The position numbers were made by a program. From Escherichia coli (lineage in GTDB: Bacteria; Pseudomonadota; Gammaproteobacteria; Enterobacterales; Enterobacteriaceae), in assembly GCF_003334765.1 (NCBI RefSeq), contig NZ_QOWT01000005.1: DNA of 64,000 nt; one strand, written 5' to 3'. The stretch's first letter is position 1. Each line of letters begins with the position of its first letter. This document shows positions 63,001-64,000 of the stretch, piece by piece.

Positions 63001-64000
63001 ACTTTTTTGGTTTTTCCGGCTGCTGACAGATGCATGTAAAATGCCTTTATCACCGGATTAAACCAGGTTACCACAAGCGCTGCCATGTGCAGGGCTGCTC
63101 TTGCCTCCGTACGCGCACTGGCGTCGTTCGGCCAGCAGATATGTGTGGGATAACAGGGATGTTATGTGAACTGAACTGTGTTTTGTTAGCGGGGGGATGT
63201 TTATTGATGATTCGGGAGTGTTTAAGACCTGATGGCGTTATGCTCCCAAGTTTATTTTATATAAAGATCCAAAAGCAAAAACCCGCCTTGTGGGCGGGTT
63301 CTTTAGAATAGTGGTGCCGGAATCGGAATCGAAAATTTCTTTTATCATATTGATATTAATATAATTTGTTTGGTTTGATTAAAAATGTACCCTCAATTAT
63401 ACCCGCAGTCCCTTTTGATATCGAAAGGGAATCACACTCGGGATCAGGCTGAGAGCACAGAAGGAAAGTACCTGGCTATTATATCGTTAATTCTGTCAAT
63501 CAGTTCCAGCCTTTTGAAAGTGATGTGTGCAGATCCCTTCTTAAAGTATTTAATGATGAACATCTCGTCTTCATAGCGCTCTTTACCCTGAACGGACTGG
63601 ATGTGACCATCCAGACGAATAGTGATGTTTTCCCGGTTGTCGGGGATCGGTTTGCCGCTGAACAGATGTAGCATTCTTTCCAGGTCGACGAGTCGGTCAG
63701 TCTGTTGCCCGGTGATAAGATGAAACCCCCACCGGTCCCACCTCACCAGGTTGTTGACGATAATTTTACTGCCAAATTTGCAGGGGCAATTGGTTTTGTA
63801 ATTCCAGCTCAGTCCCCTGAAGACGTTGATCACCCCTCGCTCAAACACCTCATCCTTATTCTGGTGTAGTTGTTCAAATGTGATCAGAATGTTCGCTTCA
63901 CTGATTTCCGGAAAATTATCGTACTCCAGTGACCGGTACCATGTATCACGGGCCTGTGCATCCATTAAGGAAAGCATCCCTGAACGTTGCATCAGGTCAC

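What the first reader, a model, noticed from the sequence alone, without database searches (positions are those of the whole stretch)
63444..64000. Edge ORF of unknown function beyond the IS remnant
A minus-strand ORF of at least 182 aa runs off the window edge with an open frame upstream of its first ATG. It has no motif I can assign and lies outside the recognisable kps genes, so it may belong to an adjacent genomic island. A terminator lies about 140 nt downstream of its stop.
Basis: seen in the sequence. Interest (0 to 1): 0.3.

Follow-up and report, generated by a model that had tools for sequence, protein, structure and literature searches.

The report
DUF4942 gene ending a pheV island

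Summary
A minus-strand ORF (63444-63992, open to the edge) encodes residues 97-280 of a 280-aa DUF4942 protein (WP_001280485.1). The true start lies 395 bp beyond the window. The sequence is 100% identical in at least 12 complete E. coli genomes. The gene occurs in 4056 of 5426 genomes, median two copies, with dN/dS 0.09-0.19.

It is the last gene of a ~64-kb pheV-integrated island. A fixed module precedes it: DUF932, KlcA-like antirestriction, RadC/JAB, DUF987, CbeA, CbtA, DUF5983, DUF957. A degenerate 22-nt repeat of the pheV 3' end (63312-63333) marks the island boundary.

Function is untested. The database label "restriction methylase" is not supported: there is no methyltransferase domain, motif or fold. 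DUF4942 is the N-terminal module of some phage and plasmid N6-adenine methyltransferases, but here it stands alone. Plasmid relatives (YdiA/YgfB) are typically the first gene next to oriT in anti-defence leading regions. I infer a non-catalytic establishment or anti-restriction role. Known family, low interest.

The parts
63444..64000 (-). 3' two-thirds of a DUF4942 gene: codons 97-280 plus the stop codon, of a 280-codon CDS identical to WP_001280485.1. Family-invariant residues inside the window are D201 (63686-63684), H254 (63527-63525) and N267 (63488-63486). W95 lies just beyond the edge.
   Evidence: ORF list and translation. Pfam DUF4942 E=1.2e-60 for the window part and 1.5e-65 for the full length. 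RefSeq annotation in a 100% identical genome. dN/dS 0.09-0.19. Invariant columns.
63334..63443 (-). 110-nt non-coding tail of the island, between the DUF4942 stop codon and the att repeat. It is AT-rich and contains a weak hairpin (7-bp core stem, TCCCTTT/AAAGGGA) that folds no better than shuffled sequence.
   Evidence: Sequence. Fold z=-1.3. Not conserved in islands at other tRNA sites.
63312..63333 (-). Degenerate 22-nt direct repeat of the 3' end of tRNA-Phe (pheV). It differs from the 23-nt tRNA end by one deleted base and one substitution. It marks the distal boundary (att repeat) of the pheV island.
   Evidence: pheV 3' end read in the reference genome. Alignment with the empty pheV site of K-12 MG1655. 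A gapless pattern search missed it because of the indel.
63277..63303 (-). Rho-independent terminator: 11-bp stem, 5-nt loop, T-run. It is the ancestral terminator of pheV, displaced by the island insertion. Homology with the empty K-12 site runs from 63333 to about 63265.
   Evidence: Terminator scan. Fold z=-4.1. Identical sequence directly after pheV in K-12.
62931..63113 (-). IS110-family transposase remnant (C-terminal fragment, pseudogene). It lies between the pheV terminator and kpsF, outside the island. Listed as context only.
   Evidence: RefSeq annotation of the identical region (locus 15032-15214, which equals window 62931-63113).

Best explanation
[not shown]
For: Identity: Pfam DUF4942; identical annotated CDS.
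Real, selected gene: present in 4056 of 5426 complete E. coli genomes, median 2 copies; dN/dS 0.09-0.19 among five intact paralogues.
Island anatomy: pheV plus integrase at the far end; att repeat and displaced pheV terminator; the same nine-gene module ending in DUF4942 in four further loci, at pheV (two variants), tRNA-Ser and selC-side sites.
Not a methyltransferase: only DUF4942 is found in the full-length protein and in all 95 stand-alone relatives; no NPPY/F or motif I; the confident AF2 model (pLDDT 89) is a helical N-part plus a beta3-alpha2-beta3-alpha subdomain, with no significant match to any solved structure.
Module of methyltransferases: long forms are DUF4942 + MTS with NPPF; PHROG 6263 'DNA methyltransferase'; phage annotations.
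Shared site: W95, D201, H254 and N267 are invariant in stand-alone and fused forms.
Establishment niche: 4362 plasmids carry a relative, 3997 of them conjugative. In an IncI plasmid the gene lies one gene from oriT, co-oriented with ardA, psiB and ssb. In a pOXA-48-like plasmid it lies among RadC/JAB, KlcA-like and ssb genes. In plasmid CP051629.1 it follows ArdA. Samuel et al. 2024 (PMC11541004, supplementary file 3) list DUF4942 families 24 (n=2171, FDR p=0, median position 1 from oriT, strand 1) and 76 (n=551, p=2e-100) among leading-region-enriched families.
Stand-alone is not a broken fusion: both forms are encoded 2.4 kb apart in one element.
Against: No experiment on any DUF4942 protein was found in the searchable literature. 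PADLOC and NCBIfam give no hit. The fold matches no known antirestriction protein or DNA-binding domain, so both DNA binding and anti-restriction are inferred from context and domain fusion only. In the chromosomal islands there is no evidence for an oriT or for conjugative entry, and the gene is kept under purifying selection in a resident chromosome. That could point to a role in the resident state (island maintenance or regulation) instead. An invariant Asp-His-Asn constellation could equally mark an enzyme active site. Not all leading-region genes are induced on entry (PMC12672017), and I could not check ygfB itself.
Confidence: 0.45

Rival explanations
1. It is an active DNA methyltransferase, as the database names 'restriction methylase', 'restriction endonuclease subunit M' and 'methyltransferase domain' suggest.
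For: Such names are attached to family members. Distant relatives are fused to a class-I methyltransferase domain.
Against: The 280-aa protein ends where the catalytic domain of the fused forms would begin. No methyltransferase Pfam family hits it or any of 95 stand-alone relatives. It has no motif IV (D/N/S)PP(Y/F/W) and no motif I, whereas the long forms have NPPF near residue 380. The predicted fold is not a Rossmann-type seven-stranded sheet and matches no solved methyltransferase.
Confidence: 0.03
2. It is a detached targeting or specificity subunit that recruits a separately encoded methyltransferase (an orphan MTase of the element, or a host enzyme such as Dam or HsdM) to the element's DNA.
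For: The DUF4942-MTase fusions imply a functional link. Methyltransferase genes lie within a few kb in 3 of 8 distant contexts: L007, L008, L020/L021. Orphan MTases are frequent in leading regions.
Against: No methyltransferase gene lies in the conserved E. coli island module or near the gene in 5 of the 8 sampled contexts. In L020/L021 a complete fusion already coexists with the stand-alone copy.
Confidence: 0.15
3. DUF4942 is an enzyme in its own right, for example a hydrolase or transferase acting on DNA, nucleotides or a defence-system messenger, and uses the invariant Asp201, His254 and Asn267 (with Trp95) as its active site.
For: Four polar or aromatic residues are invariant across about 100 sequences down to roughly 25% identity, in both stand-alone and fused forms. 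The fold is unlike any solved structure, so an unrecognised catalytic site is possible.
Against: No similarity to any enzyme family. Invariant Asp/His/Asn residues are also typical of base-specific DNA contacts.
Confidence: 0.15
4. It belongs functionally to the neighbouring CbtA/CbeA toxin-antitoxin unit or to island maintenance, for example as a regulator or third component.
For: It always lies downstream of CbeA-CbtA-DUF5983-DUF957, on the same strand, in the E. coli islands. It is under purifying selection in resident chromosomes.
Against: Plasmid and phage relatives occur without CbtA/CbeA. K-12 CP4-44 carries cbeA and cbtA but no DUF4942 sequence. A terminator-like hairpin follows DUF957, read by eye from the sequence.
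Confidence: 0.08
5. It is a DNA-processing accessory factor for transfer or excision of the element, which would explain why it sits next to oriT in plasmids and next to the att repeat in islands.
For: Median position 1 from oriT in 2171 plasmids. It is the last gene before the att repeat at pheV and selC-side sites, and 150 bp from a tRNA-Ser gene.
Against: Its orientation matches the strand-1 orientation shared by most leading-region families in the survey. The non-coding DNA between the gene and the island end is not conserved between sites. There is no similarity to relaxosome or excisionase families.
Confidence: 0.1
6. It is a decaying remnant without function.
For: It lies next to an IS remnant, and the neighbouring DUF5983 gene is a pseudogene.
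Against: All five copies compared are intact, with dN/dS 0.09-0.19 at dS 0.3-0.55. 3644 genomes hold a copy covering at least 80% of the gene, annotated as intact DUF4942 CDSs in the rows listed.
Confidence: 0.02

Closest known systems
[not shown]
   Same: Same gene family: 83-92% amino-acid identity among the E. coli island copies compared. Same 280-282 aa size. Same position as the last gene of the module DUF932, antirestriction, RadC/JAB, DUF987, CbeA, CbtA, DUF5983, DUF957, DUF4942. The SRL island table lists orf56 as DUF4942, related to L0010 (PMC6980539).
   Different: Nothing essential. The copies differ in integration site (pheV, tRNA-Ser, selC side) and in what follows the gene. The ST131 pheV island has an extra DUF6088/AbiEii pair after it.
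YdiA / YgfB proteins of IncF, IncI and IncL (pOXA-48-like) conjugative plasmids; leading-region families 24 and 76 of Samuel et al. 2024
   Same: Same Pfam domain, same stand-alone architecture of about 270-290 aa, 36-37% identity over residues 12-278. Same neighbours (KlcA/ArdB-like antirestriction, RadC/JAB). Transcribed in the same direction as the rest of the module, towards the end of the element.
   Different: The plasmid copies lie next to oriT and enter a recipient first. The copy here is chromosomal, next to a tRNA att repeat, with no known oriT. Neither has an experimentally known function.
DUF4942-MTS fused orphan DNA methyltransferases (Pseudomonas phage phiPSA1 gp22, Rhizobium phage RHph_TM3_3_3 EVB37_079, PHROG 6263, 454-557 aa bacterial forms)
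   Same: Homologous DUF4942 module with the same invariant W, D, H and N residues.
   Different: The fused forms carry a C-terminal class-I methyltransferase domain with NPPF, whose best but weak solved match is M.TaqI at E=0.28. The protein here lacks that domain entirely.
Antirestriction proteins ArdA and KlcA/ArdB
   Same: Same genomic niche: plasmid leading regions and the same island module. This is the role proposed here.

Membership tests
Pfam DUF4942 (PF13708) | Significant match to the family HMM over essentially its whole length | tested here: met
   Window part: E=1.2e-60, model positions 11-189 of 190. Full length: E=1.5e-65, model positions 1-189 of 190, residues 87-275.
Pfam DUF4942 (PF13708) | Family-invariant residues W95, D201, H254, N267 (as defined from my alignment of 95 diverse members) | tested here: met
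   All four are present in the full-length protein. D201, H254 and N267 are encoded inside the window; W95 lies two codons beyond the edge.
Class-I SAM-dependent (amino-)methyltransferase / 'restriction methylase' | Methyltransferase domain detectable by profile (MTS, N6_Mtase, N6_N4_Mtase and similar) | tested here: not met
   No methyltransferase family hits the protein or any of 95 stand-alone relatives. The fused long forms do hit MTS.
Class-I SAM-dependent (amino-)methyltransferase / 'restriction methylase' | Catalytic motif IV (D/N/S)PP(Y/F/W) and glycine-rich SAM-binding motif I | tested here: not met
   A regular-expression scan finds neither in the 280-aa protein. NPPF is present at about residue 380 in all four long forms.
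Class-I SAM-dependent (amino-)methyltransferase / 'restriction methylase' | Rossmann-like alpha/beta fold with a seven-stranded sheet | tested here: not met
   [not shown]
tRNA-integrated genomic island (pheV island / CP4-type) | Integration at a tRNA 3' end, with an integrase next to the tRNA and a direct repeat of the tRNA 3' end at the distal boundary | tested here: met
   In the genome identical to the window here, tRNA-Phe and a tyrosine integrase lie at the far end. A 22-nt degenerate repeat lies at window 63312-63333, followed by the native pheV terminator as in the empty K-12 site.
Plasmid leading-region gene family (Samuel et al. 2024, families 24 and 76) | Homology to YdiA/YgfB | tested here: met
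   tblastn gives 36-37% identity over residues 12-278 (E about 1e-43) to the IncI 'ygfB' and other plasmid DUF4942 genes. Family annotation in the paper's supplementary file 3.
Plasmid leading-region gene family (Samuel et al. 2024, families 24 and 76) | Location in the first genes after oriT, on the strand shared by most leading-region families | tested here: not met
   This copy is chromosomal and flanked by a tRNA att repeat. No oriT or relaxase lies nearby. Only the co-orientation with the module is shared.
Known anti-phage defence or antirestriction families | Match to a curated defence (PADLOC) model or a solved antirestriction fold | tested here: not met
   [not shown]
Anti-restriction / establishment function | Alleviation of restriction, or improved establishment of incoming DNA | not testable with these tools
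   This needs conjugation or phage-plating assays. No published experiment was found.

The most novel reading that the evidence does not exclude
Stand-alone DUF4942 proteins are an uncharacterised class of establishment or anti-restriction factor, or a new enzyme built on an invariant Trp/Asp/His/Asn site in a fold with no solved relative. The class would be shared between the oriT-proximal first gene of thousands of conjugative plasmids and the terminal gene of tRNA-integrated E. coli islands. In that case the conserved end module of CP4-type islands would be a chromosomal counterpart of a plasmid leading region, which hints that these islands enter cells by conjugative mobilisation as single-stranded DNA.
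Probability: 0.3. Interest if true: 0.55.

Novelty: already known. Interest (0 to 1): 0.18.

Why it matters
For this window it matters little. The ORF is a routinely annotated conserved-hypothetical gene, identical in many sequenced strains. Recognising it fixes the right-hand limit of the kps region and shows where the pheV island ends.

The family itself is a legitimate open question. It is present in about three quarters of complete E. coli genomes, in about 6% of PLSDB plasmids (92% of those conjugative), and is typically the first gene to enter a recipient on IncF/IncI-type plasmids. Even so, no function has been tested, and its common 'methylase' label is unsupported for the stand-alone form. 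A simple restriction-alleviation or conjugation assay would settle it. The window copy adds no information beyond what thousands of other copies already provide.

Tried and rejected
1. Solved-structure relatives by sequence, with a single protein and with a 95-sequence profile: none at E<=10.
3. PADLOC and NCBIfam: no hits. PHROGs gave two unknown-function families plus 'DNA methyltransferase', which led to the fusion analysis.
4. Literature. 'DUF4942' appears in 4 papers, which hold one occurrence each; the one I opened mentions it only in a gene table. 'PF13708' appears in none. 'ygfB' and 'ydiA' do not appear in any listed paper on leading regions. The ED-TA RNA-seq paper does not name the gene in its text, and its supplements are not held.
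5. A gapless search for the pheV 3' end in the window found nothing. The repeat has a 1-nt deletion and was found by eye, then confirmed by alignment.
6. The hairpin directly after the stop codon, considered as the gene's own terminator, is not better than shuffles (z=-1.3).
7. The sub-threshold Rfam hits (P9 sRNA, Trp leader) fall on the terminator hairpin, lie far below gathering scores, and are treated as chance.
8. The promoter-like site at 63424->63396 (10 of 12 matches) is not informative, because the number of such sites equals the shuffle expectation.
9. Conservation of the non-coding tail between islands at different tRNA sites, looked at as a possible oriT or arm site: not conserved.
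10. K-12 CP4-44 as a possible holder of a DUF4942 remnant (yoeF/yoeD): tblastn finds none.

Full report
OBSERVATION

The window ends in a minus-strand ORF at 63444..63992, 182 aa from its first ATG. Read by hand, the two complete in-frame codons upstream of that ATG (GAC CTG) are open up to base 64000. A megablast of 62900-64000 against 5426 complete E. coli genomes gives 100% identity over all 1101 nt in at least 12 genomes. In those genomes the stretch is annotated 'DUF4942 domain-containing protein | IS110 family transposase'.

In E. coli D8 (NZ_CP010151.1; locus L001, window position = locus position + 47899) the CDS is 843 bp / 280 aa (WP_001280485.1). Translation shows that the window holds residues 97-280 and that the window's first ATG is codon 99. 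The real start lies 395 bp beyond the edge, behind a plausible ribosome-binding site. The in-window part matches Pfam DUF4942 at E=1.2e-60 and the full length at E=1.5e-65, residues 87-275.

THE GENE IS REAL AND MAINTAINED

The gene alone, without flanks, is found in 4056 of 5426 complete E. coli genomes, with a median of 2 and a maximum of 8 copies. These are almost all chromosomal: 8454 places against 5 on plasmids.

I compared five intact paralogues from different islands: pheV in D8, pheV in an O102 strain, pheV in ST131, a tRNA-Ser site in O157 Xuzhou21, and the selC side in CUVET20-PYO4. They give Nei-Gojobori dN/dS of 0.09-0.19 at dS 0.31-0.55. Residues 1-85 are somewhat more relaxed than the Pfam domain.

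ANATOMY OF THE SURROUNDINGS

In D8 the gene is preceded, on the same strand, by this series: Ag43, DUF932, a KlcA/ArdB-like antirestriction protein, a RadC-like JAB protein, DUF987, CbeA, CbtA, DUF5983 (a pseudogene here) and DUF957. Further on lie sugar-utilisation and pgt genes and the pap operon. Across the record origin lie a tyrosine integrase and tRNA-Phe next to yqgA/speC, which is pheV. The island spans about 64 kb.

No tRNA gene lies in the window, and a gapless search for the pheV 3' end found nothing. However, window 63312-63333 (tggtgccggaatcggaatcgaa on the + strand) is the 23-nt pheV 3' end with one base deleted and one substituted.

Alignment with the empty pheV site of K-12 MG1655 shows that window 63333->63265 (minus strand) equals the last 22 nt of pheV followed by the sequence that directly follows pheV in K-12. 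That sequence includes an identical terminator, AAGAACCCGCCCACAAGGCGGGTTTTTGCTTTTGGATCT. So the repeat is the distal att boundary of the island, and DUF4942 is the last island gene, with 110 nt between its stop codon and the repeat.

It is on the same strand as the gene and may still end read-through transcripts. The small hairpin directly after the stop codon folds no better than shuffled sequence (z=-1.3). Beyond 63265, homology with K-12 stops. The IS110 remnant (62931-63113) and kpsF follow.

THE ARRANGEMENT IS GENERAL

The same nine-gene module ending in DUF4942 recurs in four further loci.
- pheV in an O102 strain has the same layout as D8.
- The ST131 pheV variant has an extra DUF6088/AbiEii pair after DUF4942.
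- At a tRNA-Ser gene near ghrA in O157 Xuzhou21, the tRNA gene lies 150 bp away.
- On the selC side, next to setC, the gene is followed after about 130 bp by TTCGACTCCTGTGATCTTCCGC. I recognise this from memory as the tRNA-Sec 3' end; I did not check it against a selC sequence.

Apart from the att repeats, the non-coding tails are unrelated between sites. K-12's CP4-44 prophage, which carries yeeS, yeeT, cbeA, cbtA and yeeW, has no DUF4942 sequence at its end.

WHAT THE PROTEIN IS NOT

Several databases call family members 'restriction methylase', 'restriction endonuclease subunit M' or 'methyltransferase domain'. I tested this label in three ways.
- Pfam finds only DUF4942 in the full-length protein and in all 95 diverse stand-alone relatives. 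No methyltransferase family reaches even E=0.1.
- The protein has no (D/N/S)PP(Y/F/W) motif and no glycine-rich motif I.
- A confident AlphaFold2 model (95-sequence alignment, mean pLDDT 89.1, pTM 0.81) shows long helices (24-54, 79-102, 110-159) followed by a beta3-alpha2-beta3-alpha subdomain (174-273). This is not a Rossmann sheet.

WHERE THE LABEL COMES FROM

An exhaustive search of 1.84 billion cluster representatives finds 2034 relatives at E<=1e-3. Of the best 150, about 100 are 250-300 aa and four are 460-468 aa.

The long forms are DUF4942 followed by a class-I 'MTS' methyltransferase domain. Pseudomonas phage phiPSA1 gp22 (543 aa) has the same layout. By size and position of the match, so do the Rhizobium phage RHph_TM3_3_3 protein (460 aa) and PHROG 6263 'DNA methyltransferase'.

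All four long representatives carry NPPF near residue 380. Their best, though weak, solved match is the motif I-IV region of M.TaqI, an N6-adenine DNA methyltransferase (E=0.28). Only about 87 residues follow the NPPF motif in the 468-aa form. That leaves too little room for a C-terminal recognition domain of the M.TaqI kind. I therefore infer that DUF4942 supplies DNA or target binding in these enzymes.

The four invariant residues of the stand-alone proteins (W95, D201, H254, N267) are kept in every fused form, including phage proteins at about 25% identity. So the module does the same thing with or without the catalytic domain. In one metagenomic element, found twice (L020/L021), a fused form (522 aa) and a stand-alone form (268 aa) lie 2.4 kb apart. 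The stand-alone form is therefore not simply a truncated enzyme.

GENOMIC NICHE OF THE RELATIVES

tblastn finds relatives in 4362 of 72,556 PLSDB plasmids, 3997 of them predicted conjugative.
- In an IncI-gamma/K1 plasmid the gene ('ygfB') is separated from oriT/nikAB by one gene. It is co-oriented with the klcA-like gene, ssb, psiB, psiA and ardA.
- In a pOXA-48-like IncL plasmid it lies among RadC/JAB, a KlcA-like antirestriction gene and ssb, upstream of mobA-traI.
- In plasmid CP051629.1 it follows PsiB, PsiA, MqsRA and ArdA, and precedes an AcrVA2-like gene.
- In an IncP-like contig it follows KorA-IncC-KorB and precedes a C5 methylase.
- Other distant contexts are co-directional arrays of small unknown genes. 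Methyltransferase genes are nearby in 3 of 8 contexts.

Samuel et al. (Nature 2024, PMC11541004), in supplementary file 3, list two DUF4942 families among those enriched in plasmid leading regions.
- Family 76: 551 members, p=2e-100, median position 6.

The same table names YafZ-like (DUF945), YkfF-like (DUF905) and KlcA families, whose names derive from CP4 prophage genes of K-12. The end module of the chromosomal islands therefore overlaps in gene families with a plasmid leading region, whose known members (ArdA, KlcA, PsiB, SSB) act in establishment and anti-defence. For background, zygotic induction of many, but not all, leading-region genes has been shown for IncI1 and F plasmids (PMC12672017). 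I could not check the DUF4942 gene itself, because it is not named in the text and no supplement is held.

MOST LIKELY MECHANISM

Shown:
- identity of the gene, its island position and its conservation;
- absence of a methyltransferase domain;
- homology to the N-terminal module of orphan adenine methyltransferases;
- enrichment next to oriT among anti-defence genes.

Inferred: the protein is a non-catalytic establishment or anti-restriction accessory that binds the element's DNA, or a host restriction-modification component, through the conserved W/D/H/N site.

I rate the general role at about 0.5 and the specific binding mechanism at about 0.3. The rivals are:
- a detached targeting subunit for a methyltransferase encoded elsewhere (0.15);
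- an enzyme in its own right that uses the Asp/His/Asn site (0.15);
- a transfer or excision accessory, given its position next to oriT and att (0.1);
- a component of the CbtA/CbeA unit or of island maintenance (0.08);
- an active methyltransferase (0.03);
- a remnant (0.02).

No experiment on any family member was found.

NOVELTY AND VERDICT

The ORF is an already annotated member of a very common family, identical in many sequenced genomes.

This second look adds four things:
- the exact island boundary;
- reassignment of the terminator to the ancestral pheV locus;
- rejection of the 'methylase' label for the stand-alone form;
- the link to the oriT-proximal YdiA/YgfB family.

The family is an open functional question of moderate interest, but this copy contributes nothing that thousands of others do not. 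Interest 0.18; novelty: already known.

Noticed in passing
window 63265-63333: The displaced pheV 3' end and its native terminator survive almost unchanged next to the island end. The IS110 remnant and the whole kps cluster lie beyond this terminator, outside the repeat-bounded island, so kps appears to be a separate insertion downstream of pheV. 151 nt (63114-63264) between the IS110 remnant and the terminator match neither K-12 nor any annotation.
   Followed up: partly
window 63396-63424 (minus strand): A promoter-like site (TCGATA-17-TATAAT, 10 of 12 matches) sits just after the DUF4942 stop and points at the att repeat and the pheV terminator. If active it would give a transcript of about 100 nt containing the tRNA fragment. 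The count of such sites in the region equals the shuffle expectation, so it may be chance.
   Followed up: no
L013 4415-5736 (E. coli ST131, NZ_OX637959.1): In the ST131 version of the same pheV island, a DUF6088 gene and a frameshifted AbiEii-type nucleotidyltransferase toxin gene are inserted between DUF4942 and the IS110 remnant. The island end is therefore a variable spot that can hold an abortive-infection/TA pair.
   Followed up: no
L020 2050-6807 and L021 2050-6807 (metagenomic contigs): One element encodes both a DUF4942+MTS fusion (522 aa) and a stand-alone DUF4942 (268 aa) 2.4 kb apart. The same co-directional array also holds an HD_4 protein, an Mrr_N+N6_N4 methyltransferase and a PAPS-reductase-like protein.
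   Followed up: partly
L001 16718-16894 (E. coli D8), beyond the window edge: The DUF5983 (YeeW-like) gene between CbtA and DUF957 is truncated to a pseudogene in the D8 and O102 pheV islands, but is intact (about 162 aa) in the ST131, O157 and selC-side islands. Read by eye, a terminator-like hairpin follows DUF957, so DUF4942 may have its own promoter.
   Followed up: no
L014 4493-4580 (E. coli O157 Xuzhou21): Here DUF4942 lies 150 bp from an intact tRNA-Ser gene whose 3' end faces it. That makes the DUF4942 end the tRNA-proximal end at this site, the opposite of the pheV island, where the integrase is tRNA-proximal.
   Followed up: no
window 63278-63363 (-) and 63224-63307 (+): Sub-threshold Rfam matches (Pseudomonas sRNA P9, 23.6 bits against a gathering score of 43; Trp leader, 22.3 against 41) both fall on the pheV terminator hairpin. 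They are most likely chance matches driven by the stem-loop.
   Followed up: yes
L011 5854-7913 (pOXA-48-like plasmid NZ_CP032174.1): A DGQHR-domain (DndB-like) gene in the leading region is split by an IS1 insertion just upstream of the plasmid's DUF4942 gene.
   Followed up: no
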